Below are positions 5,940 to 35,538 of a stretch of DNA of 64,000 nucleotides, one piece after another. The DNA is taken from positions 32,466-96,465 of IMG/VR virus record IMGVR_UViG_3300035520_000350. One strand, written 5' to 3'. Source of the DNA: a virus (Duplodnaviria > Heunggongvirae > Uroviricota > Caudoviricetes). The first letter of the stretch is position 1, and every line of letters starts with the position of its first letter. Made by a program: the position numbers and the translations under genes. The notes beneath the pieces were generated by a model, which saw only the letters and a list, made by a program, of their open reading frames with translations, was not told the DNA's origin and did no database searches.

Positions 5940-5990
5940 ACAGAAAGAGCGTAGGGTATATACCCTACGCTCCCCTTTTATTTTTTATAC
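5940..5990. terminator. Bidirectional terminator shared by the convergent genes 5153-5938 (+) and 5985-12023 (-).
   Basis: GAGCGTAGGGTATATACCCTACGCTC hairpin with an A-run on the left and a T-run on the right. Confidence 0.6.
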
Positions 5991-8900: not shown

Positions 8901-11900
8901 GTTAGGAGAAGATACCGGAAGATTAGATACTGGTAATTCTTGTTTCTTCTTAGAGTTGTCTTCGTCTAAGATTTCTCTTATAGATCTTCCTTTAAGTTCT
9001 TTATCAAGAAGCTCTTTATCTAACTGAGTCATTCTCTCAGCACGAGCTACATTGATATTGACAGAATCATCTTTCATAGAATCTAATCCGGAAAGCAATT
9101 CCTTCATGTCAATATCATCTTCCATAGCATCTAAAGCATCATCTGTATCTACAGCATCATCAGCAGCCTTATCCACTTTATCTACTATCTGCTTCATTAC
9201 TTCCATCTCTTCTTCTGAAGAGTCTCTAGCAATGGAAGAGTTAGCAGTAAGTTTATCTACATCTGGTTCTTCTGTAGGTTTTTCTACTGTCTTCTTTTCC
9301 TTAGGCTTATCATCCTTCTTTACTTCATTAGGATTACGGCTTCCTTTAGAATTGACATTAGACGTTACTTCTACAGTATCATCTTTCTTAGTCTTCTCAT
9401 CCCTTACTTTCTTGTCTACAGCAGTTAAGTCTACTCCCTTAGAAGCTTCAATCCTATCATAAATATCTGTCTTAATAGCATCTTTAGTAGGAGTATCTTC
9501 CGTAGTATCAATATCAGCCTGATCAAACTCTTCACCCTTATTGATCTTGATAATGAAGTTCTTAAACTTCATAGCATTTCTCTTACTATTAGCAGTATCA
9601 GTAAAATCAACAGTGAAGTACTTGTTCTCACCAAAGAATACTACATCAATACCTTTGAAGAGTTTCTTTAATCCTTCTGGATCTCTGAGCATTAGCTCAT
9701 AGATAATAGAGATAGGATCGATATCTTCTCTGTATAACCACATCCTTGTATTAGGATTCTTATACCAGTCATTGATAGAGATAAAGACTGTAGTTCTCTT
9801 ATAACCAGCAGACTTGATTCTCTTATCATTGATAAGTCTATCAAGAAGCTCTTTATATAAACCAAAGCTACGCTTGATACTCCAATCATTGTTCTTGAAG
9901 AATGCTTGCTGATAGTAATACAAGTCAACAAACAGATTTCTCTGATCATATCTATCTAAGTCTACATAAGTATACTTGATATAAGGAACATCTGCTTTTA
10001 CTCTATCAAGTAACAGAGTAACTTCTTTACGCTTAACCATTCTTTCCTTATATAAGATTCTCTTAAGAGCTGGATCATAAGTAGCATCCTCTAAGATAGT
10101 CACATAGTCTCCGTTTATGATATAAGAACCTTCTTCTAAGGAACTAAGCATAGACTCAGACATACTTTCTTTATCTTCTGTATTGGAACTAGAAGTAGGT
10201 GTAGTAGGCTGAGGAATATTTACTTGTAACTGATCCTTTACTGTATCCATAAGATTCTTAGTCTTATTACGGATTCTTCCGTTATACATTTTAGTCTTGG
10301 TACTTGCTCTATACTTAAGACTATTAGTAAGACTAGAAGCAGTAATATCCTTAGACTCTACACATAAGTCCTCTGGTGCGTCAAATTCAGTTACCCCATA
10401 TCTTCTAGCTAAAAGATATAAATCGTTTAAATTTGACTCACTTAAGATTTTATAAGCACCTGATAAGGTATTCTCTGAAACCATATTGTAGAAAAACATA
10501 GCTCTTTGTGTAGACTTACCTGTAAAGCATTCTGCTACACAACCAGGGATTACAGTATGCTTTAACTGAGGAAATCTAAGAGCTACTAATCCAGCTATAA
10601 CAAGTTCTACTATACAAGTAGGATATGTGTCTGGATACTCTGTAATAAGACTAGAAATACATTCTACAGTAACCTTATTATCTTCTGTTTCAATAGACTC
10701 TACATTAGAAGCAATAAGAGATAACTCCGGAATATAGTCAAAGCCTAACTCTGTTTCAGACAGTATCTCTGAATACATATCAGGAGTAATAATCTGCTTA
10801 AGCAGATCTATATCCTGTACATAACCAGAGAATTTAATCTTATCATTGATATAGAGAGTATCAGTAGGACTAATAGTAGGGATAAGATATCCCTCTAATC
10901 CACTCTCTTTAGGTAATGGAACCCATGATACGGATTCTTCCATAACAAAGCTTAAAGCTTTCTTATGCTCTGGAGTAAGCTTACTATATACCTCTTTGAT
11001 ATCATAGAACTCTCCAGTAGTCATAAACTCATCTATATCTACAGTATCAAGATTTCCAGAGTAAGTATCAATAGCAGTTCCTACAAATACCTCTGTATAG
11101 AAACCATAGAATCTGTTTTCAGGAGGAAGATCTTTCTGTGTAGTAGTATCCGGATCATCCTTAAACATCTCTACATATCTTACTCCTGTATCATAAGCAG
11201 CTATAACTTCTAATCTAGCTTCTTCTCTACATTCTCTTATAGTACCTTCAAGATGAGATTCATCTGGTTCAAATCCTCCACCGGGAACTTTATAAGTACC
11301 ATCCTCTTTAAAGACTAAGTATACCTTAGTACCAGTCTTATCAAGAATAAGCATTTCTCCTCTACCTCTAAGAGGTTTCTCTACACCAGATACATTAACA
11401 ACACAGTTATATGTACCATCGTTATTATAGTAGCCTCTCTCAGAAGTAATATTGTAGGACTCTGTAAGTACACCAGATTCATTAGTATACTTATAATATT
11501 TCTTGAATCTGTTATTATCACCTACTTTAGGATAAGAATCCTTACAGAACTTACCGATAGCCCTATTAAGATTTTTAGCTAACTCTGCTTCGTCTTCCTT
11601 GTCTACATAGTTAAAGAACTTAATAGCAGACATTACATGAGCTTTACTATCTAAAGGATACTTTCTCTTCTTTGGTAAACCAAAGTCAGAACTCTTTAAA
11701 GCTTTACGCTCTGCCGCTGTCATTTCACATAAACTCTGATAGATATCTACTTCTCTACATTCTCTTACATAACTCTCTGTAACATCATCCACCTTATTCA
11801 TTACCTTAGAGCTAATGAAGTAGGTAAGATCTTTCTCAATATAATAAGACTGGAATCTTAGCTTATTGATAAGCATATTAGAGTTTAAGAGATTCTTAGA

Positions 11901-12023
11901 AGACTCATAGTTAGGAGTAAGTAAGTAGATAACAGAGTGCTTCTTCTTATCACCATCTACTGTTGGTAGAAACAATGGTCTCTTATAAACCTTAAGAGGT
12001 TTAAGATTCTCTAACAAAAGCAT
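5985..12023 (-). CDS. Giant 2012-aa protein. The N-terminal region carries a Nudix hydrolase box. The C-terminal ~680 aa resembles the C-terminal half of the RNA polymerase beta subunit (RpoB).
   Basis: The Nudix box GGGFEPDESHLEGTIRECREEARLEV at aa 248-273 (nt ~11205-11282) fits GX5EX7REUXEEXGU with the G replaced by R. GDKITYNAANKAIISKVIPEGKEPYT matches RpoB GDKMAGRHGNKGVISKIxPxEDMPY. GLSGMNSDRSYSLDKRTYDKSMLGVVGMSTGFSGNVGI resembles RpoB [47 protein letters not shown] before the ATG at 12023. Confidence 0.6.
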   Translation of the reverse strand: MLLLENLKPLKVYKRPLFLPTVDGDKKKHSVIYLLTPNYESSKNLLNSNMLINKLRFQSYYIEKDLTYFISSKVMNKVDDVTESYVRECREVDIYQSLCEMTAAERKALKSSDFGLPKKRKYPLDSKAHVMSAIKFFNYVDKEDEAELAKNLNRAIGKFCKDSYPKVGDNNRFKKYYKYTNESGVLTESYNITSERGYYNNDGTYNCVVNVSGVEKPLRGRGEMLILDKTGTKVYLVFKEDGTYKVPGGGFEPDESHLEGTIRECREEARLEVIAAYDTGVRYVEMFKDDPDTTTQKDLPPENRFYGFYTEVFVGTAIDTYSGNLDTVDIDEFMTTGEFYDIKEVYSKLTPEHKKALSFVMEESVSWVPLPKESGLEGYLIPTISPTDTLYINDKIKFSGYVQDIDLLKQIITPDMYSEILSETELGFDYIPELSLIASNVESIETEDNKVTVECISSLITEYPDTYPTCIVELVIAGLVALRFPQLKHTVIPGCVAECFTGKSTQRAMFFYNMVSENTLSGAYKILSESNLNDLYLLARRYGVTEFDAPEDLCVESKDITASSLTNSLKYRASTKTKMYNGRIRNKTKNLMDTVKDQLQVNIPQPTTPTSSSNTEDKESMSESMLSSLEEGSYIINGDYVTILEDATYDPALKRILYKERMVKRKEVTLLLDRVKADVPYIKYTYVDLDRYDQRNLFVDLYYYQQAFFKNNDWSIKRSFGLYKELLDRLINDKRIKSAGYKRTTVFISINDWYKNPNTRMWLYREDIDPISIIYELMLRDPEGLKKLFKGIDVVFFGENKYFTVDFTDTANSKRNAMKFKNFIIKINKGEEFDQADIDTTEDTPTKDAIKTDIYDRIEASKGVDLTAVDKKVRDEKTKKDDTVEVTSNVNSKGSRNPNEVKKDDKPKEKKTVEKPTEEPDVDKLTANSSIARDSSEEEMEVMKQIVDKVDKAADDAVDTDDALDAMEDDIDMKELLSGLDSMKDDSVNINVARAERMTQLDKELLDKELKGRSIREILDEDNSKKKQELPVSNLPVSSPNEEWHHMQYMNFDKNYDIEKDLVNIFKHFSTVSRPLSVRNIKAEDNSTSEDRLDLYTVEYEDYRGKRYTIKLDIPKIRNDRFLLRGNAKTIQTQFFNMPIIKVDLDTCQIVTNYKKIIISRFNTVSGRSLPNVSRFIKAASKYTGNKIKFVEGNNSRICAKYNLPIDYIDLSGVFTTIETKQYIFYFNQDQIRELYEVNEGLGTPYAYDKENKHLVYYSNKDTIPFIDTLVRDMTYETNSDFYELYSSAKSATGSTYTRAKIMGEEIPLIIVCSYSEGLTQILKKANIEYRFTEKLSSEDRNNISLDWIRFSDGYLVYRVDYNSSLLLSGFKDCDTLSHSFTEVDDKNMYLEFLEDYGGRIKADGLDNFYDCEIDPITKETLEYYKLPTEYISVLLYANYLLSDNKFIRHTDTSSRRARRYELVAAYTYQVMSETYGIYANSLKHNRTQAPFSCKQSAVIDKIMLDPTSSDYSVNNLLNDVETTNAITYKGLSGMNSDRSYSLDKRTYDKSMLGVVGMSTGFSGNVGITRQATLDMNIEGGRGYVKDSKGKTDNMNTAKVLTATEAVMPFIATHDDPMRIAMSFIQTSKHAVRTEQSDPLLVTNGSDEALAYICSDQFAYKAKSKGVVKELTESYMIIQYDDGTEDYINLSETIEKNSDGGFYVPLKLDADEKLKVGSKFKPGQILAYDHLSLSNSLGETDNLAYNVGKLAKIAIINTDEGFEDSGVITEEMAKMLSCDIIGKVDCVLDKDTNIYNVVKVGQHIEQGENLLVWQTPYDEEEVNALLKALANDKEAVSELGRHSVKAEVTGRIAGIKIYRTVDYDEMSDSLRKLVKAYEKPIHELKSKLKEEGIEYTDLPADYPLDATGKLKKSYDSILIEFYIEYTDILGVGDKITYNAANKAIISKVIPEGKEPYTDFRPNEHISAFVSVTSIQKRMVQSTVTYGALQKLMVELDRTCKDMAGIPYDDTKV

Positions 12024-19295: not shown

Positions 19296-19478
19296 AATGC
19301 AATCTCTCCTTTCCTAACTAAGATTTACTTTAAAGTTCATATCTAACAAACTAATGTGTCTAGATTCGTTAATCTAGATATCTAAGCTTATATATTATAA
19401 AGGTGTACTAAGAGATAAAAACATCTCATAGTATAGAGAAACTAAAGTAAATCCAAAAAAGAAAAGGAGAACAAAACA

Positions 19479-20213
19479 ATGAAAGCAATGAAAGTACGTG
19501 TAATACTTATGGAAGAGATTCTTGGAACCTTACCTGGAGATCCGGAAGTTTATAAGAACTGGATCGCATCCAAAGCTCCGACTGAGGAGAAGACCGAGGA
19601 AGAAGTCGAGATGATGACGAAGGCAAGCGCGGAGGAAGAGTTTGCGAAAGGTATCACAGTGTTCCCAAGAGATCCGGAGGGGCGTCCGTCAGTGTATGAC
19701 TACCTTATCAAAGGCTTCTTTAAGAATGCCTGCAATGCAATGAGAGATGCAGATTCTTCCGTATCGGCAGGCTTGTCCGCATACAAGAAGAAGATCGACA
19801 ATCTTGTGTTCATCGCTCCGCGTTACATCAATCTTCAGTTTGAAGGTTCAATCGGGTTCTGTGAGCGTCCGCTGAGAGCAAGTACAGCGCAGGGTGAGCG
19901 TGTAGCAATCGCCTGCTCGGAATCTATTCCGGCTGGAACAGTTCTTGAGTTTGAAGTAAGTGTACTCAAGGATGAGATGATGAACTACGTTGTGGAGTGG
20001 CTGGACTATGGTAAGTTCAACGGTCTTGGTCAGTGGCACAATTCCGGTAAGGGAAGATTCACCTGGGAAGATGTAAGTGAAGTTCCGGTAGCAGAGCCGA
20101 TCAGAAAGCAGATGGAAAAGGCAGCAGAAGCCGCAAAGAAGAAGAAAGAGGCTGCAGCTAAGAAGAGAGCAAAGAAGGAAGAGGCAGCGGCTGTTGAGTC
20201 GGAAGAAGAGTAA
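19479..20213 (+). CDS. Hypothetical protein, 244 aa, with a Lys/Ala/Glu-rich tail. Its GC is clearly higher than its surroundings.
   Basis: ORF with SD AAAGGAG. GC judged by eye. Confidence 0.5.
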   Translation: MKAMKVRVILMEEILGTLPGDPEVYKNWIASKAPTEEKTEEEVEMMTKASAEEEFAKGITVFPRDPEGRPSVYDYLIKGFFKNACNAMRDADSSVSAGLSAYKKKIDNLVFIAPRYINLQFEGSIGFCERPLRASTAQGERVAIACSESIPAGTVLEFEVSVLKDEMMNYVVEWLDYGKFNGLGQWHNSGKGRFTWEDVSEVPVAEPIRKQMEKAAEAAKKKKEAAAKKRAKKEEAAAVESEEE

Positions 20214-20460
20214 GATCCGCAACGGCAACGTGCAGTAAAGCACAATGTTGCTCAGTATTGTAATTGTGGTGTTATGTGCGTATTGGTAGCGTGATGGTAT
20301 GGTATAGCAAGGCACTGTTAGTACCGATTAGTAGAAAACACGTGATGGCTAAGTAAAGCATGATCAGGTATGGCTTAGTTACGGTTTGGTTAGGTATAGA
20401 CTCGTTGTGCTAGGGTTCTGACTAGTAATGCTATGTTCTGAGAGATTTATCACTCAAAGT

Positions 20461-20548
20461 GTTTACCTGATTGCAACCCTCAAATGTTTCAGGTAAACAA
20501 AAATAAAAATGGTGTGCTTGTATATCAAGCACACCATTTTATTTTTGG
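20461..20548. terminator. Two tandem hairpins, the second a bidirectional intrinsic terminator.
   Basis: GTTTACCTGA...TCAGGTAAAC, then AAAAATGGTGTGCTTG-TATAT-CAAGCACACCATTTT flanked by an A-run and a T-run. Confidence 0.6.
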
Positions 20549-20559
20549 ATCAAAAGTTC

Positions 20560-23500
20560 ATTACTTAAGTATCTGCAAAGCTTTATATGGCATTGATAGT
20601 ATTGCAATAGTCTAGTAAGGCATGGTATGGGCTGAGTGAAGTAGGGTTGAGTTGCGTAAAGCAAATGTACTTTAGAGCTATGATGTGTAGTGAATCGCAT
20701 AGGTGAAGTAATGTAGAGGTTGTATAGTTCAGTTATGGTTAAGTGGGGTGCTGTATGGAATGGTCATGTAAATGTATAATATCGTCCTGTTGTGCTACTC
20801 TAAGATATAATGTGCTGTAGTTGTCTAGTATTGTCGGGTGAAGTAAGGTATTTGCTGAGTATAATCGAGTAAAGTATTGTGAAGTAGAGGTAAAGTAGGG
20901 AAATGACGGTATGGCTAAGGTTTGGTATGGTAAAGATGTGTTTGGTGTTGTAATTGTATGGTGAGGTGGAGTAGTGCGTTGCTATGGCTTAGTGTAGCCA
21001 TGCTTTGTGACGTGCTGCTAATGATTTGTATAGTGACATGGAGTGGAGTAAGCAACTGCCTAGTTTAGTATCGTGAAGTCATGCGTTGGTGTTGCTTATC
21101 AATATGACGTAATGAATTGCCTAGGTGTAGTTTCGTTTGCCTTGTAAAGTAAGGGCATGGTGGAACACCATATTGTGGAGTAACTGTAAAGTTGAGTAAA
21201 GATAAGCGGAGTAAAGTTCAGTCAAGAAATGGAAAGGTTGCGTAAAGTGGCGGCTGTGCGGTAATGTTTTGTGAGGTGATGGTAAAGTAGAGTATCGCTA
21301 CGTACGGTGGTGAGATTGTATTGCCAAGAAATGACAAGTTTGGCTTTGTTATGTAGGGTCGTGGTGTAGTATAGATTCGTTGCGCATGGTGTTGCAGAGT
21401 CGAGGAAAAGTGCTGGAAGTATAGACAAGTTACGGTATAGAGCGGAATAGTTTAGTAAATGCTAGGTGTGGTAACGTCCTGTTTGTTAGATATTGTAATT
21501 GCATTGTTATGTTGGCTGATGTGAAGTAATGAGATTACTCGGTTATGTTTGATGATGTAAAGGTTCTGTGACGTTCAGTGGAGCTGAGTGTTGTTCAGTA
21601 AAGGTAAAGTGCGGATATGTTTTGTTCAGTTCAGTAATGGTGTCGTATCGTAAAGTTCTGTAATGGTACAGTTGCGTAATGTACTGCTTAATTCAGTAAT
21701 TGTGTCGTATGGTTGGGCTACTTAAGGTATTTGCTTAGTCAAGTGGTGTTAGCTTAGTAACGTCATGTTGTGGCATGTATTGCTGAGTTTAGGCAGTATC
21801 GTGATGGTGTATTACAGCGTAGTAGAGGATTGGTAAGGTAGAGCTTTGCATAGTATTGCTAATGAAATGCATTGACTTGTAATGTCTTGCAAATGTATTG
21901 TTAGGCAACTTGATGTATGGTTTTGTCAATGCTCGGTGATGTACTGATCAGCACTTCAAAGGTATGGTGAGTTGCAGCTAGTTCAGTAGAGGTAAGGTAC
22001 AGTTTTGTAGAATCTTGTATCGGAGAGGAAATGTAAAGTATAATGGCGCGATGGATGAGTAAGGTATTGATACGTAAAGTAATTGTGAAGCGCTCTATGG
22101 AATCGTTACGTCTAGCAAACTTTAGTAGAGGTAAGGTGAGGTGAGGCTTAGTGATGTGTCGTAGTGTAATAGTGAAGTGACGTCTCGTATTGAACGGTTT
22201 TGTCAAGCATAGGTAAAGTGAGGTCAGGAATGGTAAAGTTATGGTGTTGTTTTGTCTGTTAAAGTTATGTAAATGCAAGGTGAGGTCTAGCAAGTATTGT
22301 TTGTGAAGGTACAGTGTTGTGGAGTCACTAATGTATCGGCGAAATAAAGTCTTGTAAGGGTAAAGTTTGGTAGCATAGAGTTTCGTAAGGGTATAGTTTA
22401 GATTCGCGGTATAATGTGTTGTCCAGTATCTGCATGGTAAAGAAAAATACAGAAGAGTAAGGGTGAAGTGATGTGCAGATCGGTAAGGTGAAGCATTGTG
22501 TAGTATCTGAGTGGTAATGTTGGTTACGTAAGGTGGAGGTACAGTTGAGTAGAGCAATAGAACGTTAAGTTACGTAATTGAAATGATTAGCAAAGATAGT
22601 GATGCCAATCTATGCATTGCAATAGTATGGTGAAGTATCGTCAGTGCGGTAAAGGTACTGTATGGTGTGGTATAATTTGGTTGAGAAATTGTGTAGTAGT
22701 CTCTTGTATAGTAGTTGTGTAATAAGGTAGAGTTAGTAACGTTCGGTAAAGGTAAAGTACAGTTCGGATATGCATTGTAAATGTATAGTCGGGATGCGTA
22801 CCGAGTAGTCGTGTATTGTGACGGTATGATATAGTTACGTTACGGAAAAGTATGCTATTGTACGTGCGGTAAAGGTATTGTGAATTCAAGTATTGAAACG
22901 AAACGTATAGTAAAGGTAAAGTATTGCCGCGTCTCGCTTTGTATTGTATTTGTGCGGTAATGGTGTGGCGATGCATTATTTGGAAAAGTATCGTACCGAC
23001 AAAGTGATTTTTAGTAGCGTATCGTAAGGGTTTTGTGACGCAGGGTGACGTATAGTGTAGCAATTGCTGAGTGAGGTCATGATCTGTCAATGCGTAGTGT
23101 AGACAGGTATGGTGGTAGTGGAATAGTTTAGTCAAGTAAAGTGAAGCTATGAGACTGTGTAGTACATTCATGTTTTATTTAGCATTGCAACTGTAACCTA
23201 TAGCGATGTAATGCGTTGCTGTTGTAATGCAATGAATTGTAAAGCCATGCATCGTAACTGTTAATTGCTGTAAAGTTGTGTTAGGTTATGCTATTGAGCT
23301 GTATAACAAGGCTTTGTGATGGTCAAGACAGTTTAGTTCAGCAAAGGTATCGAATAGCCTAGTAAAGAAATGTGTAGTGGAGGTAACGTTTAATGAAGTT
23401 TAGACTCGTAATGGCATAGACAGTCTAGTAAAGTAAAGGTATAGTTTAGATAAGTCTAATTTAGTGATGGTAGAGCTTGAGATAGTTTTGTAACGTGAAT

Positions 23501-24880
23501 GTGAAGTGGGGCAAAGTCAAGTGTTGTTCAGTGCCTGCATGGTAAAAAATGTTTAGTTGCGGCAAAGTTAAGATAGTTATGTCACGCAGTTGTATAGTAA
23601 AGTGCGGATATGTAACGAATTGTTATGCTAAGGTATAGTACAGTGACATGCAGCGGGGTTGTGTCTAGCATCGTAGATGAAAAGTGATGTGGTGTTCTGC
23701 CAATGTGAAGTGGAGTGCCTCGATGATGGTTTTGTAATGTAGAGGTAAGGTGCAATAAAGTACTGTATAGTAAAAGCATTGGTAAGGTATTATAGGGTAT
23801 TGTATTATGCTGTATTTGATTAGTAAAGTTAACTCTGTATTGTAATTGTATGGGTAGTTGAGTTCCGTTCGGTATATGCATAGTCGAGAATAGTGCTGTT
23901 ACGGCATTGTAATTGTGTGGTAGTGTTGAGTTAAGTCTTGCAAATGTAGCTTGATGCGAGCTGAAGTATGGTTCAGTAAAGGTCAAGTGGAGCACAGTGA
24001 AGTTTAGTATCGCAATAGAGGAGTTATGCTATTGTAAGGATTAGTCTTGCCAAGAAAAGGTGAAGTCTTGCAGCGTAACGTAACGTACTGTAATTGTGGA
24101 GTTATGTGTGTATTGGTAGTGTGATGGTATAGTGCAGTAGAGCAATATTGCGTAAATGTAGAGTAAAGCAATGTATTATTTAGTAGAGGTACGGTCGGGG
24201 CAATGTTAAGTAGTGTGTTGCTATTGTAGAATGTGGTAAGGCGCTATGATGTTTAGTAAATGTAAAGTATCATGCTGGCAGTTAGGTGTGGTAACGTAAA
24301 TGCAAGGTGAAGCCTATTTCAGTAATGGTAGTGTATATGAGAAGTATAGCAACGTAACGTCTGGCTAAGCTAATGAAATGCAGAGTAACGTATTACAATG
24401 AACGAATTGCATAGGTAATGTGACTTCATGTTCTGTGATGTGAAGTGATGGTAAAGTGCACTAAAGTGTGTAGAGTAATGGTGTAGTAAAGTACGGTAAT
24501 GATGTGTGAGGTAAATGTAAAGTTACATGAAGTATGATGTAGTAATGGTGATATGATGTGAAGCAGAGACAAGTATTGCTAAGGTAAAGAAGTGCGTAGA
24601 ATGGTAACAGTAAAGTCTTGCTACGTAGATTAAAGTCATGCAATGGATAGGTGACGTTGAGTGGTGCATTGGTAGGGTAAAGTGGGGTAAAGGCAGTGTA
24701 GTTCTGTTACTGAACGGTGTGGTGGCGCAGCGCAACACTTAGTAAAGGTGATGTGATGTTCGACTGTGTTTTGTTATGGTGGAGTGCTGTGAGATGACGG
24801 AACGTGGAGGTAAAGGCTTGGTTATGTGTAATTGAGTGATGAGTTGTAAATGTAGTATAGAGTTTTGTTCAGCAAACAAA
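20560..24880. repeat. Non-coding island of about 4.3 kb. The plus strand is strongly C-depleted (G/T/A-rich) and built from degenerate short repeats (GGTAAAGT, GGTGAAGT, GTATTG, TGTAATTGTG) with an apparent ~1.1 kb higher-order periodicity.
   Basis: The 17-mer GTAAAGTGCGGATATGT sits at 21604 and 23597. CAGTNYCTGCATGGTAAA sits at 22424 and 23529. AGTTCGGATATGCAT...TAGTCG sits at 22761 and 23861. TTGTAATTGT occurs in at least 6 places. The only ORFs are minus-strand ORFs with T/L/Y/H-rich nonsense translations. Confidence 0.7.
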
Positions 24881-24935
24881 AGAGCTAAGGATAATATCCT
24901 TAGCTCTTTACTTCTCACTCTTCTTTATTTTTTAG
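24878..24935. terminator. Bidirectional terminator. It ends the minus gene 24932-25729 and would also stop plus-strand transcription leaving the repeat island.
   Basis: 14-bp stem AAAGAGCTAAGGAT/ATCCTTAGCTCTTT with an A-rich left flank and a T-rich right flank. Confidence 0.55.
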
Positions 24936-25729
24936 TAGTCTTTAAGCTTAGACTCCAAGTAGTCTATAGCTTCGTTTGTTTCTTTGATTCTCTTATCAAG
25001 CATCTTGTTAAAGGTAACAGCTCTGATGATTACTTCTCCAACTTTTAAGCCCGCATTAACACCATAACTGGTAATGACACTATTTTTCATTTTGCTACTA
25101 GTAGCTTTTAATGAATTTGCAAAACCATCGGCTGTGGTAGCTTTAAGCGCATCACCAGTTCCTTTGAAAAAAGCATCACTGACAGCATTTTGAGCTACTA
25201 CATTTACTATTAATGACAGTCCAGTTCTAGAGATACCAGTAATACCTGCATAAGCATCTTTTCTTACAATCAATCTCCAGATATCATTGAAAGGAATAAG
25301 CGCTTTAAGAGCATACTTTGCTCTAGCACTACCGGAATACTTAGCCTGTTCCATGTTCTTTACACACTTTTTAAGAACTTTAATCCTTTCTTTAAGATCC
25401 TCTTTGTCTTCTACCTTACTTCTAGAAGCTTTAACAAACTCATCATACCATTTCATAGTTTGTTTAAGAGTTACTGCATCATCTTCTGCAGCTTTTTCTA
25501 ATACTACTCCTAATTCTGTTAAGCACTCTGTGAAGTATTCATCACAGTAGTCGTATACTACTATAGCTTCATTGACTCCGTTAGCAGAACAAATTCTACT
25601 AAGCTGGTTAGAGATATTGAAATCTCCAGTAGCTTCACAGAATCTCTGTAAGTCTCTAGAAGAGATATAGTAGTTACCATTCTCAGAGTAGATCTGATAA
25701 GACATAGGATCTTTACTAGCCTCATTCAT
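24932..25729 (-). CDS. Hypothetical protein, 265 aa.
   Basis: ORF only. Confidence 0.5.
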   Translation of the reverse strand: MNEASKDPMSYQIYSENGNYYISSRDLQRFCEATGDFNISNQLSRICSANGVNEAIVVYDYCDEYFTECLTELGVVLEKAAEDDAVTLKQTMKWYDEFVKASRSKVEDKEDLKERIKVLKKCVKNMEQAKYSGSARAKYALKALIPFNDIWRLIVRKDAYAGITGISRTGLSLIVNVVAQNAVSDAFFKGTGDALKATTADGFANSLKATSSKMKNSVITSYGVNAGLKVGEVIIRAVTFNKMLDKRIKETNEAIDYLESKLKDY

Positions 25730-25987
25730 TACAGCTAATCCTTTTCTTACTTTATCATATCCCTCTTCAATAAGGGTAGTTCCTTCAGATAGTAGAATAT
25801 TATCTACTTCAGTGTCCCCCCCCTAGTGAAAGGGCGTGACCATAGATACCCATAATTAAGTCCTCCTTTAGAAGATTTTAGTTTGATTATTAATATAAAG
25901 TTCTGATTAGACTGTCTTATGAACTCTCTAAAATACTACTTACTAGCCTCCAAAACATTTTAATAACCACCAAATTTAGAAAGGAGA

Positions 25988-28900
25988 ATGTATATGAAAA
26001 TCATTAAACGTAGTGGTGTAGAAGATACTTTTGATCCCAGTAAGATTGATATAGCTATCAGAAAAGCTAATGATACAACATTAGATGATTCAGATAAGCT
26101 TAATGATGAACAGATTAAGGGTATCGTAGACTATATTATTAATTACGCTCAGGATTGTGGCAGATCTCTTAATGTAGAAGAGATTCAAGATCTCGTAGAA
26201 GAGCGTATAATGGATGCAGGTGCTTTTGAAGTTGCTAGATCATATATTACCTACAGATACAAAAGAGCATTAGTAAGAAAGACAAACTCGACAGATGATG
26301 CTATATTATCTCTCGTTAGTTGCAACAACGAGGAGATTAAGCAGGAGAATTCTAATAAGAATCCCTATATTAATAGTACTCAGAGAGACTATATTGCCGG
26401 AGAGGTAAGTAAGGATATTACTAGACGATTGTTACTGGATGAAGATATCTGGGATGCTCACGAGAATGGACTCATCCACTTCCATGATGCAGATTATTTC
26501 TTACAACCAATGACGAACTGTTTCCATTCTGATACTGAATTTGTAACGGATAAAGGAGTGGTAAGATTTGGAGATTGTCATGAAGGTGAGAGGATATTTG
26601 TAAGAAACATTACCGGAAATTATGTACCAGCGATGGTTCATAAATATGGTAAACAGAAGATGCAAACTGTTACCTTTAGATCGTGTAGAACTGTTAAGAC
26701 AGTTAGATGCACGTATAACCACAGATGGGTGTTAAAGGACGGAACTATTACTGAATCGTTAAAAGTAGGAGATTCATTGTATCCGACTGTAGATACAACA
26801 AATACACCAATCAATAATCCGTTTATGTTCTGCTTAGGGTTTGTACTTGGAGATGGATCTGATTTTGCCGGAAGTAATATATCAGAGCCTACTGGTGTAA
26901 GAGTTCGTTTATGCGGTAACAAAACTCAATATTTGCCTCATTTTACATTGGCAGGATTTGATATATCAAAAGAGAAATTTCATAATGGAGATATGTCTGT
27001 TACTTTTAGCAAGTATCCATTAAAAAAGAATTTTATTAATGGGTTTGGTTGGCGGTTTCTTTCTTTATCTGATAAGATTGATCTATTTAAGGGGTATTAT
27101 GCTGCAGACGGAAATACTCTTTCAAATGGAATAGCTACAGCAAATCATATATTAGCTCAGATGATAAGAGAGATTTCTGCTTTAGCCGGATACTACATAA
27201 CAAGTGAAAATTTTGAAATTAGGGACACTAATTTCAAGAAAGGAGCTAGTTTATGGACGTTCAGATTTATGAAACGTCAAAGTATTAATAGATGCTGGAA
27301 AGTAGAATCTATAGATAGATCTGATTATCACACATATGACGCTTGGTGTGTAGAAGAACCATCTACTCACACTTTTACTCTTGGAAATGGAATGGTCACT
27401 GGCAACTGTTGCCTCGTTAATCTAGAGGATATGTTGCAGAATGGCACTATCATCTCTGAAACAATGATTGAAACTCCTAAGAGTTTCTCTACTGCTTGTA
27501 ATGTAGCAACTCAGGCTATTGCACAGATTGCAAGCAACCAGTATGGCGGACAGTCTATTACTCTTTCCCATCTTGCTCCATTTGTTGATGTAAGTAGAAA
27601 GAAGATCATAAGGAAAGTAATAGAAGAGTTTGAGACTCTTGGCATTGAGTATACCGATGAGATGGTAAATAATGTTACCGAGTCTAGAGTAAAGGAAGAG
27701 ATCAAGAGAGGTGTACAGACTATTCAGTATCAGGTTATTACTCTTATGACTACTAATGGTCAGGCTCCTTTCATTACAGTATTCATGTATCTTGATGAGG
27801 TACCGGAAGGACAGACTAGAGATGACTTAGCAGCTATCATTGAGGAAACTCTTAACCAGAGATACTTAGGAGTAAAGAATGAGAAAGGTGTATATATTAC
27901 ACCGGCGTTTCCTAAGTTAATCTATGTCTTAGAAGAGGACAATATCCATGAAGATTCTAAGTATTGGTATCTTACTCAGTTAGCAGCAAAGTGTACTGCT
28001 AAGAGATTAGTACCGGATTACATCTCTGAGAAGAAGATGAGAGAGTATAAGAATGAAGATTGTTATCCTTGTATGGGATGTAGATCATTCTTAACTCCTG
28101 ATAGAACAGTAAGAAATTCTGCTAAAGCGTTGAACTACGAAGAAGGAAAACATAAATACTACGGAAGGTTCAACCAAGGTGTTGTTACTATTAATCTTGT
28201 AGATGTAGCTTGTTCTTCTAATGGAGATGAAGATGAGTTCTGGAGAATCCTTGATGAAAGACTTGAGTTATGCTATCGCGCTTTGATGGCTAGACATAAG
28301 AGATTAGAAGGAACTGTATCTGATGTAGCTCCTATCTTATGGCAGAACGGAGCTTATGCAAGATTAGAGAAAGGAGAAGTAATAGATCCACTTCTTCATG
28401 GTGGATATTCTACTATTTCTTTAGGATATGCAGGACTCTGTGAATGTACTGTAAGAATGACAGGAGTAAGACATACTGATCCTAAAGGAACTCCTTTTGC
28501 TTTAAAAGTAATGCAAAGACTTAACGATGCATGTGCTGAATGGAAAGCTAAAGAAGATGTAGACTTTAGTTTATATGGAACGCCGCTTGAGTCTACAACT
28601 TATAAGTTTGCTAAGTGCTTACAGAAGAGATTCGGTAAGATTCCTGGAGTTACTGATAAGAACTATATCACTAACTCTTATCATGTACATGTAACAGAGC
28701 AGATGAATGCTTTTGATAAGTTAAAGTTTGAATCTCAGTTCCAGGTATTATCACCAGGAGGAGCTATCTCGTATGTAGAAGTTCCTAATATGCAGAACAA
28801 TATCCCGGCTGTATTATCAGTGATTCAGTTTATCTATGATAATATCATATATGCTGAATTGAATACTAAGAGCGATTATTGCATGAACTGTGGTTTCGAT

Positions 28901-29032
28901 GGCGAGATTCAGATAGTAGAAGATGAAGACGGTAAGCTCGTTTGGGAATGTCCTTGCTGTGGAAACAGAAATCAGGACACAATGAACGTAGCTAGACGTA
29001 CATGTGGATTGACTGCCAATAGTCCACGTTAA
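25988..29032 (+). CDS. nrdD: Anaerobic ribonucleoside-triphosphate reductase (class III RNR, NrdD), interrupted by an intein.
   Basis: N-terminal ATP-cone (KIIKRSGVEDTFDPSKIDIAIRKA...). C-terminal 4-Cys zinc ribbon CMNCGFDGE...CPCCGN, then a glycyl-radical-like RRTCGL near the C-terminus. SD AAAGGAG. Confidence 0.75.
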   Translation: MYMKIIKRSGVEDTFDPSKIDIAIRKANDTTLDDSDKLNDEQIKGIVDYIINYAQDCGRSLNVEEIQDLVEERIMDAGAFEVARSYITYRYKRALVRKTNSTDDAILSLVSCNNEEIKQENSNKNPYINSTQRDYIAGEVSKDITRRLLLDEDIWDAHENGLIHFHDADYFLQPMTNCFHSDTEFVTDKGVVRFGDCHEGERIFVRNITGNYVPAMVHKYGKQKMQTVTFRSCRTVKTVRCTYNHRWVLKDGTITESLKVGDSLYPTVDTTNTPINNPFMFCLGFVLGDGSDFAGSNISEPTGVRVRLCGNKTQYLPHFTLAGFDISKEKFHNGDMSVTFSKYPLKKNFINGFGWRFLSLSDKIDLFKGYYAADGNTLSNGIATANHILAQMIREISALAGYYITSENFEIRDTNFKKGASLWTFRFMKRQSINRCWKVESIDRSDYHTYDAWCVEEPSTHTFTLGNGMVTGNCCLVNLEDMLQNGTIISETMIETPKSFSTACNVATQAIAQIASNQYGGQSITLSHLAPFVDVSRKKIIRKVIEEFETLGIEYTDEMVNNVTESRVKEEIKRGVQTIQYQVITLMTTNGQAPFITVFMYLDEVPEGQTRDDLAAIIEETLNQRYLGVKNEKGVYITPAFPKLIYVLEEDNIHEDSKYWYLTQLAAKCTAKRLVPDYISEKKMREYKNEDCYPCMGCRSFLTPDRTVRNSAKALNYEEGKHKYYGRFNQGVVTINLVDVACSSNGDEDEFWRILDERLELCYRALMARHKRLEGTVSDVAPILWQNGAYARLEKGEVIDPLLHGGYSTISLGYAGLCECTVRMTGVRHTDPKGTPFALKVMQRLNDACAEWKAKEDVDFSLYGTPLESTTYKFAKCLQKRFGKIPGVTDKNYITNSYHVHVTEQMNAFDKLKFESQFQVLSPGGAISYVEVPNMQNNIPAVLSVIQFIYDNIIYAELNTKSDYCMNCGFDGEIQIVEDEDGKLVWECPCCGNRNQDTMNVARRTCGLTANSPR
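26519..27406 (+). mobile_element. Intein of 296 aa with a LAGLIDADG homing-endonuclease domain, inserted after HFHDADYFLQPMTN of NrdD.
   Basis: Begins with Cys (CFHSDTEF) and ends ...HTFTLGNGMVTGN, followed by the +1 Cys (CCLVNL). Two LAGLIDADG-like blocks, LGFVLGDGS and LFKGYYAADGN, lie about 85 aa apart. Confidence 0.7.
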
Positions 29033-30101: not shown

Positions 30102-30184
30102 TGGGTAGAGCTGGACTCGAACCAGCAATGCACGAATGCGACGGATTTACAGTCCGCTGCCTTACCAATTGGGCTCACCTACCC
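30102..30184 (-). tRNA. tRNA-Tyr (anticodon GTA), type II with a long variable arm.
   Basis: Minus sense reads GGGTAGG-TG-AGCC..GGC-A-GCGGA-CTGTAAA-TCCGT-[variable arm GCATTCGTGC..]-GCTGG-TTCGAGT-CCAGC-TCTACCC-A. All stems pair, with G-U wobbles at the stem ends. Confidence 0.7.
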
Positions 30185-33360: not shown

Positions 33361-33465
33361 CTGCCAAAGAAAAGAGAGAAATGATTATGCGGTTTTCGTA
33401 TATAGAAACACTTGTTGTACTATCAGCATAAAAACAAAACCTGTACAATGAAAGGAGTATTAAAA

Positions 33466-34953
33466 ATGAGTATGAACTTAGCAGACGCATTAAGAGAAGA
33501 CTCGAAATGGACAGTAACAGAGAACGGAGCAGATGCAAAGAATACCACTGGTAATCCTTTGCTTGATCTGTATGCAACTATTGGATCGTTAAGACAACGT
33601 GATGAAAAAGAAATCATCATGAAGTTTATCTTAGCATTCAATCATGATAAGCAGGGAGCAGTTCGGTGCTTATTCTATGCTCGTGATATCAGAGGTGGAC
33701 TCGGCGAACGTAATACGTTCAGAGTAATCTACAGATACATGGGCGATGCAATGCCTGAGATCGTAGAAGAGTATCTCGGTCTTATTCCGGAGATGGGAAG
33801 ATTTGATGACTTCTATGCTTTGATCGGAACAAAGGCAGAGGATGCTATGTGGGGATATGTAGGTGAGCAGCTTTCGCTTGACCAGAAGTCTATGATCGCT
33901 GGTAAGCCGTGTAGCTTATTAGCTAAGTGGCTTAAGAAAGCTGATTCTAAGAGTAAAGATACCAAGGCTCTTGGAATCTATACAGTAAAGAAGCTTGGTA
34001 TCTCCGTCTACGAGTACAAGCGGTTATGCAATAAACTCCGCAAGTACATCAACGTAGTTGAGGTAAAGATGAGTGAGAATAGGTGGACCAAGATTGAGTA
34101 TGATAAGGTTCCATCTAAAGCTATGCTCAACTATACCAATGCATTCAAGAGGCATGATGAACAGGGCTTCTCTAAGTATATCTTGAATGTAGAGGAAGGA
34201 ACCCAGAAGATCAACACCAGCACTCTGTATCCTTATGATATCGTGCATAAGTATCTGTACGAGACAGGATCAAAAGAGTTGGAAGTAATGTGGGATAATC
34301 TTCCGGATTATCTTAACGGTGTAGAGTGCAATGCTTTAGTCATTGCAGATACATCCGGATCTATGACGTGGGACGGCGGTATGCCTATCTCAAGTGCAGT
34401 AGGTCTCGCTATCTACTTTGCAGAACGTAATAAAGGAGCATTCCATAACCTCTTTATGACGTTCTCATCTCAGTCTAAGATTCATTCTATCGATGGATTG
34501 AAAGGACTGGCTCAGAAGATTAATTTCGTAAAGTCTTCTGATTCATCTTGGTGTGGTAGTACTGATCTTGAAGCGGCATTTACAAGGGTTCTCTACGTAG
34601 CAACACAGAACAAGGTTCCGAAGGAAGAGATGCCCAAAGCATTCATCGTTATCTCTGATATGGAGATCGACAGAGCAACAGAAGATGATAATGAGCATCG
34701 GCAGACATTCTACGATGCTATGAGAGCAAAGTATGCTGTGTTTGGTTATGATCTTCCGAAGATTATCTTCTGGAATGTAAATTCTCGGCATGATGTATTC
34801 CATTCTGATGATCAGAATGACAATACGTTACTTGTATCTGGTCAGTCAGCTAGTACATTCAAGAATATCATCCAGTGCATTGATAAGACTCCGGTAGAGA
34901 TGATGTATGCTGTACTCAACTCTGAGAGATATTCTGTAATCAATATCGAGTAG
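33466..34953 (+). CDS. vWA-domain protein with Ro60/TROVE-like architecture: an alpha-helical N-terminal domain plus a C-terminal vWA with a MIDAS motif. Possible Rsr/Ro60 ortholog or DUF2828-like.
   Basis: The MIDAS motif LVIADTSGSM aligns with Ro60 VLALDVSASM. Further Ro60 vWA-like blocks are WCGSTDLEAAF, KAFIVISDMEIDRA and KIIFWNVNSRHDVFHSDDQNDNTLLVSGQS. The likely start is ATG 33466 with SD AAAGGAG; the ORF track starts at 33412. GC is above the local average. Confidence 0.5.
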   Translation: MSMNLADALREDSKWTVTENGADAKNTTGNPLLDLYATIGSLRQRDEKEIIMKFILAFNHDKQGAVRCLFYARDIRGGLGERNTFRVIYRYMGDAMPEIVEEYLGLIPEMGRFDDFYALIGTKAEDAMWGYVGEQLSLDQKSMIAGKPCSLLAKWLKKADSKSKDTKALGIYTVKKLGISVYEYKRLCNKLRKYINVVEVKMSENRWTKIEYDKVPSKAMLNYTNAFKRHDEQGFSKYILNVEEGTQKINTSTLYPYDIVHKYLYETGSKELEVMWDNLPDYLNGVECNALVIADTSGSMTWDGGMPISSAVGLAIYFAERNKGAFHNLFMTFSSQSKIHSIDGLKGLAQKINFVKSSDSSWCGSTDLEAAFTRVLYVATQNKVPKEEMPKAFIVISDMEIDRATEDDNEHRQTFYDAMRAKYAVFGYDLPKIIFWNVNSRHDVFHSDDQNDNTLLVSGQSASTFKNIIQCIDKTPVEMMYAVLNSERYSVINIE

Positions 34954-35423: not shown

Positions 35424-35538
35424 AATCCTCTAACCTTTTTGTCTCACTTTACTTTATTTTTTCTTTTCACCCCTAATATGGAGTATCCCGAACATCTACA
35501 TAATCATGAAAAATTTTAGTAAAGGAGGCAAAGAGAGT

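What the first reader, a model, noticed from the sequence alone, without database searches (positions are those of the whole stretch)
20560..24880. A 4.3 kb gene-free island with a nearly C-free plus strand and degenerate repeats of ~1.1 kb periodicity, bracketed by bidirectional terminators
Between the terminator pair at 20461-20548 and the terminator at 24878-24935 there is no credible ORF. The only ORFs are minus-strand frames with T/L/Y/H-rich nonsense translations. By eye the plus strand is roughly 5-8% C against about 30% G, an extreme strand asymmetry kept up over more than 4 kb. The sequence is a mosaic of short degenerate words (GGTAAAGT, GGTGAAGT, AGTAATGGT, GTATTG, TTGTAATTGT). Longer matches recur at about 1.1 kb or multiples of it. 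GTAAAGTGCGGATATGT sits at 21604 and 23597. CAGTNYCTGCATGGTAAA sits at 22424 and 23529. The TCGGATATGCAT...TAGTCG block sits at about 22761 and 23861. Together these imply roughly 4 diverged tandem units. Diverged ~60-bp direct repeats sit at 20255-20315 and 24086-24145 (GTATTGTAATTGTGGTGTTATGTGCGTATTGGTAGCGTGATGGTATGG vs GTACTGTAATTGTGGAGTTATGTGTGTATTGGTAGTGTGATGGTATAG). A phage devoting about 7% of this window to such DNA suggests a function. One possibility is a long C-less (plus sense) or G-less (minus sense) RNA. An RNA without C lacks every C-containing toxin-RNase site such as ACA or GCU, and the island excludes all palindromic restriction sites that contain G/C. Other possibilities are an iteron or binding-site array that titrates a DNA-binding protein, a replication or packaging element, or a satellite-like selfish repeat. 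I cannot decide between these from sequence alone.
Basis: seen in the sequence. Interest (0 to 1): 0.85.

Follow-up and report, generated by a model that had tools for sequence, protein, structure and literature searches.

The report
Guanine-phased track beside phage Cas7-like gene
The 4.3 kb "empty" stretch is a lattice with a guanine about every 5.1 bases on one strand. It always sits next to, and on the same strand as, a phage gene for a Cas7-like (CRISPR backbone-type) protein. It most likely serves as the track on which that protein polymerises, a pairing that I could not find described anywhere.

Summary
The island is real, non-coding and strongly strand-asymmetric: C 9.7%, G 29.5%, GC skew about +0.5. 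The proposed ~1.1 kb tandem units do not exist.

The true order is a phase lattice. A G, usually followed by T, recurs every 5 or 6 nt, with a mean of 5.12 nt. The 6-nt steps are spaced regularly, and the three spacer bases are free to vary.

In about 44 of 50 dereplicated lineages of this gene, jumbo phages and small temperate phages alike, a G-phased stretch lies directly upstream or downstream. Its period is 5.08-5.22 nt and it is always on the gene's sense strand. Primary sequence is not conserved, even in a syntenic relative. The phased Gs are under strong purifying selection: 1.8% versus 16.5% mismatch.

Best reading: a genome-encoded polymerisation lattice for the adjacent Cas7-like protein, most likely used as sense-strand RNA. 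Duplex DNA or single-stranded DNA are live rivals. No CRISPR array or other cas genes are present. I found no description of this pairing in the literature I searched.

The parts
19385..19402 (+). Promoter-like A/T motif (AGCTTATATATTATAAAG) about 75 nt upstream of the RAMP gene. It is the counterpart of the conserved TTATATATAATATAT box upstream of the gene in related jumbo-phage loci.
   Evidence: The box is seen in L002, L007, L036, L045, L049 and L092 at the same position relative to the start codon. It is close to unique in the window: the only other match has 3 mismatches. Function is inferred, not shown.
19479..20213 (+). Gene for a 244-aa Cas7-like RAMP protein: a ~200-aa conserved core plus a K/E/A-rich C-terminal helix. 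GC is 49% against 36% for the window.
20214..20480 (+). Proximal G-phased segment. It lies directly after the stop codon, before the terminator, and includes one copy of the ~60-nt direct repeat (20255-20319).
   Evidence: G-phase power reaches 4.6 at 20250-20450, against a background maximum of 1.45. Repeat D13.
20506..20540 (.). Bidirectional intrinsic terminator hairpin: a 15-bp stem with T-runs on both strands. It separates the gene plus proximal segment from the main island.
   Evidence: (I1). An equivalent hairpin lies between gene and island in L002, L004, L007, L012 and L045, and by eye in L036 and L049. It is absent in L031, L042, L092, L094, L102 and L104.
20560..24870 (+). Main G-phased lattice: about 840 units of G-T-(A-rich)3. 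Steps are 5 nt (80%), 6 nt (16%) and 4 nt (3%); mean 5.12 nt. It is non-coding, C-poor and has no long repeats.
   Evidence: No Rfam family. No BLAST match in 50,697 phage records.
24879..24909 (-). Terminator hairpin (14-bp stem) ending the convergent minus-strand gene 24932-25729. It marks the right border of the lattice.
   Evidence: The G-phase signal decays to background by about 24800.

Best explanation
The island is a genome-encoded polymerisation lattice for the product of the adjacent gene, a CRISPR-independent Cas7-like RAMP protein.

Shown:
- The protein has the Cas7/Csm3/Cmr4 fold with the RAMP glycine-rich loop.
- In nearly every lineage the gene is flanked, on its own sense strand, by a stretch with a G every ~5.15 nt.
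- The phased Gs are under strong purifying selection, while the spacers and the overall sequence turn over freely.
- The lattice keeps register over hundreds of nucleotides.

Inferred:
- One protomer grips one phased G plus the next base: T/U in the jumbo-phage clade, A or C elsewhere. It covers about 5 nt.
- Cooperative head-to-tail assembly, as in Cas7 backbones, would coat the whole track. That is about 840 protomers on this 4.3 kb island.
- The most likely substrate is the sense-strand transcript. It would be a 3' trailer of the RAMP mRNA in jumbo phages, reached by terminator read-through, which would also set a high protein-to-RNA ratio. In small temperate phages it would be a 5' leader or intercistronic RNA.
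- The product would be a long ribonucleoprotein filament.

What the filament is for is not resolved. In small phages the module sits among SSB-like, SbcC-like and RecT genes. That suggests a role in recombination or replication, or gp32-style self-titration of the protein. These options are speculation.

For: 2. Linkage. Among 50 clusters (95% nt) of the gene, G-phase power within 750 nt of the gene is >=2.7 in about 44. The background 99th percentile is 1.31. The element lies upstream or downstream depending on the clade.

3. Orientation. Opposite-strand (C-phase) power never exceeds 1.9, so the count is 44:0 for the sense strand. The element nevertheless switched between upstream and downstream at least 5 times on a rough tree.

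4. Period. It is 5.08-5.22 nt in 38 lineages, although the base after G differs (T, A or C) and GC content ranges from 27 to 60%.

5. Selection. In 13 related small-phage elements, phased Gs mismatch in 1.8% of cells. Non-phased Gs mismatch in 16.5%, A in 9%, T in 13% and C in 23%.

6. Pattern, not sequence. The syntenic relative L102 (RAMP 75% identical, same neighbours) has a 3.3 kb island with the same statistics but no alignable sequence.

7. Register. The 6-nt steps are regularly spaced: index of dispersion 0.18 against 0.83 +/- 0.11 for shuffled order, with 0 of 2000 shuffles reaching it. Positional variance grows at about a quarter of the random-walk rate.

8. Transcription. Plus-strand terminators sit at the 3' end of islands in L012, L031, L036, L094 and L104, and in L002 by eye. 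No terminator lies between gene and island in L031, L042, L092, L094, L102 or L104. In small phages no terminator or promoter-like site separates the element from the co-oriented flanking genes.

9. No selected RNA secondary structure: z = 0.2, 1.25 and -1.1. That fits a linear track rather than a folded RNA.
Against: - No expression or binding data exist. The link between protein and lattice is genomic association only.
- All structurally known Cas7 filaments use 6 nt per subunit (5+1) without base specificity (PMC13069675). The period here is 5.15 nt and is base-specific.
- A non-integer, regularly kept period is easier to explain with a double helix (half of 10.3 bp) than with a flexible single strand.
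- In this window the main island is bracketed by terminators that would stop transcription entering from either side. I could not define a promoter at its start.
- About 8 of 29 aligned family members carry AT-hook-like C-terminal tails (KKRGRKPK), which suggests duplex-DNA contact.
- Four to six lineages show no element: L013, L033, L076 and L107, plus two with short flanks.
Confidence: 0.5

Rival explanations
1. Duplex-DNA lattice. The RAMP protein, or another factor, coats double-stranded DNA and contacts a G on the same strand at every half helical turn (5.15 bp = 10.3/2). This forms a stiff nucleoprotein segment such as a roadblock, insulator, anchoring or partition site, or operator. The terminators keep RNA polymerase out of it.
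For: - A non-integer period of 5.08-5.22 held across lineages, with regularly interspersed 6-steps and long-range register. That is what a helical repeat of about 10.3 bp would impose.
- The window island is insulated by terminators on both sides.
- AT-hook-like tails occur in part of the family, and the spacers between Gs are A/T-rich.
- The neighbours in small phages are DNA-metabolism genes.
Against: - RAMP/Cas7 proteins are known as single-strand RNA binders.
- The strict 44:0 sense-strand orientation, despite repeated relocation, is unexpected for a duplex site.
- Plus-strand terminators placed after islands in several relatives imply that transcription runs through them.
- There is no 10.3-nt subharmonic and no phased signal on the other strand.
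- In small phages the element lies inside an operon with no terminator.
Confidence: 0.2
2. Single-stranded-DNA lattice. The G-phased strand is used as ssDNA, for example the non-template strand displaced in an R-loop or a resected or lagging strand. The RAMP protein loads on it together with the neighbouring SSB, RecT and SbcC-like recombination proteins. The island then acts as a recombination or recombination-dependent-replication start site.
For: - In small phages the gene sits between an SbcC-like ATPase and RecT, near an SSB-like gene.
- RecT filaments bind 5 bp per monomer (PMC9772228), close to the lattice period.
- Strand specificity and co-orientation with transcription fit a displaced non-template strand.
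- GC skew of about +0.5 favours RNA:DNA hybrid formation (the link between skew and R-loops is general knowledge).
Against: - G runs, which normally seed R-loops, are depleted: G autocorrelation at lag 1 is 0.63, and the base after a phased G is almost never G.
- In the jumbo-phage loci inspected, no RecT gene was called near the module.
- The small phage L025 has a separate replisome-organiser gene of the kind that (general knowledge) often carries the origin.
- There is no direct evidence for ssDNA at this locus.
Confidence: 0.12
3. Non-functional by-product. The island is a decayed pentanucleotide microsatellite or selfish satellite that expanded by slippage next to the gene, with no role for the phase.
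For: - Island length varies widely (0.6-4.7 kb) and primary sequence turns over fast.
- Short local tandem copies exist: 25-26-nt units in the window and three 36-nt copies in L025.
Against: - Only the G, and the next base, is kept. The three spacer positions are near-random, which decay of a repeat would not produce.
- Phased Gs evolve about 9 times slower than other Gs.
- The same period and strand recur beside the same gene in about 44 of 50 lineages with different motifs.
- The 6-nt steps are regularly spaced.
Confidence: 0.04
4. Artefact or hidden gene. The island is a misassembly or collapsed repeat, or a protein-coding gene in another genetic code.
For: Many metagenomic contigs that carry the gene are short or end near the island.
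Against: - An independent assembler gives an identical 6.5 kb contig.
- Dozens of independent assemblies from other samples show equivalent islands.
- There is no codon periodicity on either strand.
- The plus strand has stops of all three kinds about every 10 codons.
Confidence: 0.01

Closest known systems
Cas7 backbone filaments of class 1 CRISPR effectors: Csm3/Cmr4 of type III, the catalytically inactive Cas7 of type VII, and Csf2 of type IV-B, which assembles on non-CRISPR RNA
   Same: - Same protein fold and glycine-rich loop.
- A long beta-hairpin sits at the position of the Cas7 thumb.
- The proposed behaviour, head-to-tail polymerisation along a single strand with a fixed small footprint, is what Cas7 proteins do.
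- Type IV-B shows that Cas7-like filaments can form on non-CRISPR RNA (10.1101/2020.07.31.231399, abstract seen).
   Different: - No CRISPR array, no Cas5, Cas10, Cas11 or Cas6, and no other cas Pfam in any neighbourhood.
- The partner nucleic acid is 0.4-4.7 kb, not 30-70 nt.
- The period is 5.15 nt, not 6 (5+1).
- The lattice is written in the sequence as a phased G, whereas Cas7-crRNA contacts are not known to be base-specific (my knowledge).
- No invariant acidic residue lies in the N-terminal region where the Csm3/Cmr4 catalytic Asp sits (the position is from my knowledge).
- The module is carried by phages, within early/recombination gene blocks.
Periodic single-strand operators read by protein oligomers: TRAP on the trp leader (11 (G/U)AG triplets spaced by 2-3 nt) and the TMV origin of assembly (G every third base). 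Both are from my own knowledge.
   Same: One short specific contact per protomer is repeated at the protomer footprint. The spacers are free to vary. The strand is kept poor in the complementary base and unstructured. TRAP sites have a 5-6 nt period.
   Different: Those arrays are 30-60 nt long and bind a closed ring or nucleate a capsid. The proteins are unrelated to RAMPs. The motif here is G-(T/A/C), not (G/U)AG. The array is 10-100 times longer and is not a regulatory leader in the jumbo phages.
RecT/Red-beta annealase filaments
   Same: The footprint is 5 nt (bp) per monomer in a helical filament (PMC9772228). RecT is encoded one to two genes downstream of the RAMP gene in small phages.
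   Different: RecT binding is not sequence-phased, and no cis lattice is known for it. The lattice follows the RAMP gene, not RecT, including in jumbo-phage loci with no RecT nearby.
T4 gp32-type autoregulation: a cooperative single-strand binder that titrates itself on an unstructured stretch of its own mRNA (my own knowledge)
   Same: The lattice lies on the protein's own transcript. In small phages it runs to within 1-50 nt of the start codon, so coating could occlude the ribosome-binding site.
   Different: gp32 operators are tens of nucleotides long. In jumbo phages the lattice is 3' of the gene and kilobases long, far more than regulation needs.

Membership tests
Cas7 / RAMP superfamily (type III Csm3/Cmr4-like) | RRM-like RAMP fold | tested here: met
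Cas7 / RAMP superfamily (type III Csm3/Cmr4-like) | C-terminal glycine-rich loop (GxGxxxxxGxG) | tested here: met
   G182-L-G184-QWHNS-G190-K-G192 is invariant or nearly so in 29 sequences. It aligns to the loop of type VII Cas7 and Csm4.
Cas7 / RAMP superfamily (type III Csm3/Cmr4-like) | Beta-hairpin 'thumb' that intercalates into the bound strand | tested here: inconclusive
   The model has a long hairpin at 126-150 carrying most of the invariant basic residues. Its position resembles the type VII thumb, residues 114-138. No superposition of the hairpins was done.
Cas7 / RAMP superfamily (type III Csm3/Cmr4-like) | Catalytic Asp for target-RNA cleavage (Csm3/Cmr4) | tested here: inconclusive
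   No invariant Asp in residues 1-60. The D in 'PGDPE' is N in several members. This suggests an inactive Cas7 like type VII or IV, but no structure-based residue mapping was done.
CRISPR-Cas effector module (membership of a CRISPR system) | Co-located cas genes (Cas5, Cas10/Cas8, Cas11, Cas6) and a CRISPR array | tested here: not met
   No Cas Pfam among the neighbours in L002, L004, L007, L102 or L104. No repeat-spacer array in the window region. No PADLOC model hit at the 0.001 default; the one weak hit was to a restriction enzyme, E = 0.03.
CRISPR-Cas effector module (membership of a CRISPR system) | 6-nt (5+1) periodicity of the bound guide | tested here: not met
   The linked lattice has a period of 5.08-5.22 nt in 38 lineages. 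The 6-nt rule is quoted in PMC13069675. Binding itself was not testable.
   TRF finds only 5-26-nt micro-arrays. Self-BLAST gives 4 weak HSPs at unrelated offsets. The offset histogram is not enriched at 1.1 kb.
Known structured RNA families (Rfam 15) | Covariance-model match | tested here: not met
   Only three sub-threshold chance hits, all at or just upstream of the terminator hairpin. Fold z-scores are 0.2, 1.25 and -1.1.
Type III toxin-antitoxin RNA arrays (ToxI-like) | Near-exact tandem 34-40-nt repeats immediately upstream of an endoribonuclease toxin gene | tested here: not met
   There are no exact long tandem repeats. The adjacent protein has a Cas7 fold, not a ToxN/AbiQ fold. The family definition is from my own knowledge.
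TRAP-type periodic RNA operator | (G/U)AG triplets at 5-6-nt spacing, bound by the TRAP (MtrB) ring | tested here: not met
   The conserved positions are G then T/A/C, with no conserved AG. The linked protein is a RAMP. This is an analogy of principle only.
Protein-coding gene (standard or alternative code) | 3-nt codon periodicity and an open frame | tested here: not met
   Period-3 power is 0.2 for the island and 0.7-0.8 for the longest minus-strand ORFs, against 6.8-22 for real genes. All three stop codons are frequent on the plus strand.

The most novel reading that the evidence does not exclude
Phages of gut Clostridia, from ~40 kb temperate phages to >250 kb jumbo phages, carry a CRISPR-independent two-part system. 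One part is a solitary Cas7-like protein. The other is a genome-encoded G-phased lattice (period 5.15 nt, 0.4-4.7 kb) on which the protein builds very long nucleoprotein filaments. This would be a new class of sequence-programmed polymer. Its only conserved 'sequence' is a phase. It may act in recombination or replication start (for example RNP-driven R-loop formation at its own locus), or as a structural scaffold in infected cells. It may also represent either an exaptation of the CRISPR backbone or a relative of its ancestor.
Probability: 0.4. Interest if true: 0.92.

Novelty: categorically new. Interest (0 to 1): 0.87.

Why it matters
If the coupling is functional, it has four consequences.
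- It defines a kind of genetic element that ordinary homology and repeat searches cannot see. BLAST, TRF and Rfam all fail, and only the phase of one base is conserved. The element is nevertheless easy to find by spectral analysis.
- It gives a function-linked partner to a large, unannotated phage protein family of about 2,000 50%-identity clusters.
- It shows the Cas7 fold working outside CRISPR with a different footprint (about 5 nt rather than 6) and with base specificity. That bears on how CRISPR backbones evolved and on how such filaments measure length.
- It offers a simple, programmable protein-on-nucleic-acid polymer for structural study.

It also accounts for about 7% of this window, which otherwise looks like junk. 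It may also explain why assemblies of these phages often break beside this gene.

Tried and rejected
- BLASTN of the island against 50,697 phage records: no match.
- Rfam at E<=1: only chance hits at or just upstream of the terminator.
- Flanking proteins as single queries against viral contigs: nothing. Only the alignment-based search worked.
- Exact (GTNNN)n pattern search was abandoned. The longest perfect run is 6 units, so an 8-unit pattern would miss even this island.
- 1.1 kb tandem units: rejected.
- Minus-strand ORFs as genes: rejected.
- Sigma-70 promoter scan: 22 sites against 16 +/- 4 in shuffles, uninformative. The phage has its own RNA polymerases.
- A phage promoter at the island start could not be defined from the upstream-of-gene box. 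The motif searches were at chance level.
- The afdb50 fold library was unavailable.
- TRAP-like (G/U)AG reading: rejected.
- G-quadruplex or G-cluster R-loop seeding: GG is depleted.
- C-to-T deamination as the cause of C-poverty: rejected. G is enriched to 29.5%, not merely C lost, and GC-rich relatives keep the phase without C-poverty.
- Literature searches for jumbo-phage ncRNA with skew, 5-nt periodicity, Cas7-like phage filaments and solo Cas7 found nothing describing this module. The 2026 jumbo-phage review does not mention it.

Full report
OBSERVATION. The region 20560-24880 has A 28.3, C 9.7, G 29.5, T 32.4%. GC skew is +0.41 to +0.61 in every 400-nt window and collapses at about 24800. 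The region is not coding. Summed period-3 power is 0.2, against 6.8 for the upstream gene and 22 for NrdD. The longest minus-strand ORFs score 0.7-0.8 and have no Pfam hit. The plus strand carries 96 stop trinucleotides per kb. The bracketing hairpins are real. An independent Logan assembly is identical over 20014-26506, although it may derive from the same sample and reads.

C is 9.7%, not 5-8%. G/C-containing palindromes are common (ACGT 28, TGCA 31, GTAC 19, CATG 19). There are no ~1.1 kb tandem units: TRF and the repeat finder give only short degenerate families. Self-BLAST gives four weak HSPs at offsets 3830, 2377, 879 and 1105. The 1050-1150 offset class is not enriched, at 11 pairs against 8.0 +/- 4.7.

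WHAT THE ORDER REALLY IS. The dinucleotide GT is autocorrelated 3.1-fold at lag 5. Peaks follow at 10, 15/16, 21, 26, 31 and onward to 169 nt, and the FFT peak lies at 5.09-5.13 nt. Successive GTs are 5 nt apart 240 times, 6 nt apart 62 times and 4 nt apart 11 times. Within GT-to-GT units the three spacer positions are variable: A-rich and C-poor. So this is not a decayed microsatellite.

A dynamic-programming parse gives 842 units with steps of 5 (80%), 6 (16%) and 4 (3%). G occupies the anchor in 89% of units and T follows in 74%. The 6-nt steps are regularly spaced. The index of dispersion is 0.18, against 0.83 +/- 0.11 when step order is shuffled, and 0 of 2000 shuffles reach the observed value. 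Positional variance grows at about a quarter of the random-walk rate, with an sd of about 1.1 nt over 100 nt. The sites therefore follow a real-valued lattice of about 5.12 nt.

The signal is unique to 20200-24850 within the 64 kb. It starts right after the stop codon of gene 19479-20213. It is interrupted only by the terminator at 20506-20540.

THE NEIGHBOUR. Gene 19479-20213 encodes a 244-aa protein. It has a GC content of 49% in a 36% GC window. It has no Pfam, PHROG or PADLOC family match at the default cut-offs, and only sub-threshold NCBIfam hits, one of them to the RAMP protein Csm4. It has 1352 homologues at 50-75% identity and 2062 cluster representatives at E<=1e-3.

The window belongs to a large phage distantly related to Staphylococcus and Bacillus jumbo phages. 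Related contigs are binned with Clostridia and Lachnospiraceae.

COMPARATIVE EVIDENCE. I collected 103 loci with near-full genes and grouped them into 50 clusters at 95% nucleotide identity. I then scanned the G indicator for power at 5.05-5.25 nt. The background 99th percentile is 1.31. Within 750 nt of the gene the power is >=2.7 (up to 9.1) in about 44 clusters. The opposite-strand signal never exceeds 1.9.

The element lies downstream in jumbo and large phages, at 0.6-4.7 kb. It lies upstream in small temperate phages, at 400-600 nt, between an SbcC-like ATPase gene and the RAMP gene. In at least two of these small-phage groups (L015, L021/L025, L030) RecT follows one to two genes further on. 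On a rough tree the position switched at least five times, while the strand never changed.

The period is 5.08-5.22 nt in 38 lineages. The base after the phased G is T, A or C depending on the clade, and almost never G. Locus GC ranges from 27 to 60%. C-poverty is therefore secondary, and the phased G is the invariant.

In 13 related small-phage elements (75-96% identical), phased Gs mismatch in 1.8% of cells. Other Gs mismatch in 16.5%, A in 9%, T in 13% and C in 23%. The syntenic relative L102 (RAMP 75% identical; endolysin-like gene upstream, NrdD downstream) has a 3.3 kb island with the same composition and period. Its sequence is not alignable to this one. Selection thus acts on phase and not on sequence.

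RNA OR DNA? Several points favour a sense-strand transcript.
- The family's known biochemistry is single-strand RNA binding.
- The sense-strand orientation is 44:0.
- Islands begin at the stop codon without a terminator in L031, L042, L092, L094, L102 and L104.
- Plus-strand terminators sit at the 3' ends of islands in L012, L031, L036, L094 and L104, and in L002 by eye.
- In small phages the element lies inside an operon, with no terminator or promoter-like site between co-oriented genes.
- The RNA shows no selected secondary structure.

A terminator between gene and island, as in this window, would give many short mRNAs per long read-through RNA. That ratio fits the roughly 840 protomers needed per island copy. 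This point is inference.

Other points favour duplex DNA.
- The non-integer, regularly maintained period equals half of a 10.3-bp helical repeat.
- AT-hook-like tails (KKRGRKPK) occur in about 8 of 29 aligned members.
- The window island is insulated by terminators on both sides.

Single-stranded DNA is favoured by the recombination-gene context and by RecT's footprint of 5 bp per monomer (PMC9772228). I rate sense RNA at about 0.5, duplex DNA at about 0.2 and ssDNA/R-loop at about 0.12.

COMPARISON WITH THE KNOWN. The protein is a member of the Cas7/RAMP fold class: the fold and G-rich loop were tested and met. It is not a member of a CRISPR system: array and partner cas genes were tested and not met. 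The lattice departs from the universal 6-nt (5+1) rule of class 1 backbones (PMC13069675).

The nearest functional analogues are Cas7 filaments, including type IV-B Csf2 on non-CRISPR RNA (10.1101/2020.07.31.231399). Periodic single-strand operators such as TRAP sites or the TMV assembly origin are also close in principle (my knowledge). None of these combines a solitary RAMP with a kilobase-scale, phase-only-conserved lattice. Literature searches and a 2026 jumbo-phage review gave nothing on such a module.

VERDICT. The interesting property is a conserved 5.15-nt guanine phase genetically coupled to a phage Cas7-like protein. The coupling, orientation, period conservation and purifying selection are shown. 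Direct binding, the chemical nature of the substrate and the biological purpose are inferred or open.

Noticed in passing
window 25988-29032 (+): The anaerobic ribonucleotide reductase NrdD (1014 aa) matches the NRDD model in two stretches, with about 290 extra residues in between. This is probably an intein. In relatives the same gene is split and accompanied by LAGLIDADG, HNH or I-HmuI-like ORFs.
   Followed up: partly
L002, L007, L036, L045, L049, L092, about 60-110 nt upstream of the RAMP start; window 19385-19402: A highly conserved A/T box, TTATATATAATATAT, precedes the RAMP gene in jumbo-phage relatives, usually just after the previous gene's terminator. It is probably a phage promoter class. 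I could not trace it elsewhere in the window.
   Followed up: partly
alignment A1, C-termini (e.g. P0037, P0059, P0114, P0118): About 8 of 29 family members end in AT-hook-like basic tails (KKRGRKPK; P0114 has RGRP). The window protein instead has a long K/E/A-rich helix at 205-243.
   Followed up: no
L025 7551-7660: Three tandem copies of a 36-nt unit (GGAATAGCATGGTTCAGAACTGAGTAGATACGACAT). Each unit is exactly seven pentamers plus one base, the same 5.14-nt average as the lattice.
   Followed up: no
L036/L086 4701-6000; L094 1001-1900: Some phages have additional G-phased islands. L036 has two at 2-3.3 kb upstream of the gene, and L094 has one on each side of it. All are on the same strand.
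   Followed up: no
small-phage loci (L020, L021, L024, L064-L071), about 1.5-1.7 kb upstream of the RAMP gene: A separate AA-dinucleotide periodicity of 4.83 nt lies inside the SbcC-like ATPase ORF. Its cause is unknown and may be coiled-coil coding.
   Followed up: no
L021 10173-11186, L025 10455-11468: A PAPS-reductase-like gene lies three genes downstream of the RAMP gene in small phages. As I recall, type IV-B CRISPR loci, whose Cas7-like filaments form on non-CRISPR RNA, are associated with cysH-like genes. This may be coincidence.
   Followed up: no
window 33412-34953 (+): A DUF2828/DUF7788 protein (PHROG 850, 'RNA-binding protein'; as I recall, related to TROVE/Ro60-type proteins) lies about 8.5 kb downstream. 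It is syntenic in L102. A link to the island RNA was not examined.
   Followed up: no
homologue lists: Very many contigs carrying the RAMP gene are only about 1-3 kb long or end within a few hundred bases to about 2 kb of the gene. This suggests that assemblers often break in or near the lattice.
   Followed up: no
window 5985-12023 (-), 35506-46305 (+), 30102-30184 (-): The window also holds a 2012-aa protein with NUDIX and weak RNA-polymerase Rpb2 domain-6 matches. It holds a 3599-aa protein ending in lysozyme, CHAP and C39-like peptidase domains. It also holds a tRNA-Tyr.
   Followed up: no
L104 6023-7135: A tubulin-family gene (PhuZ-like) lies 3 kb upstream of the RAMP gene in one 245 kb relative.
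   Followed up: no
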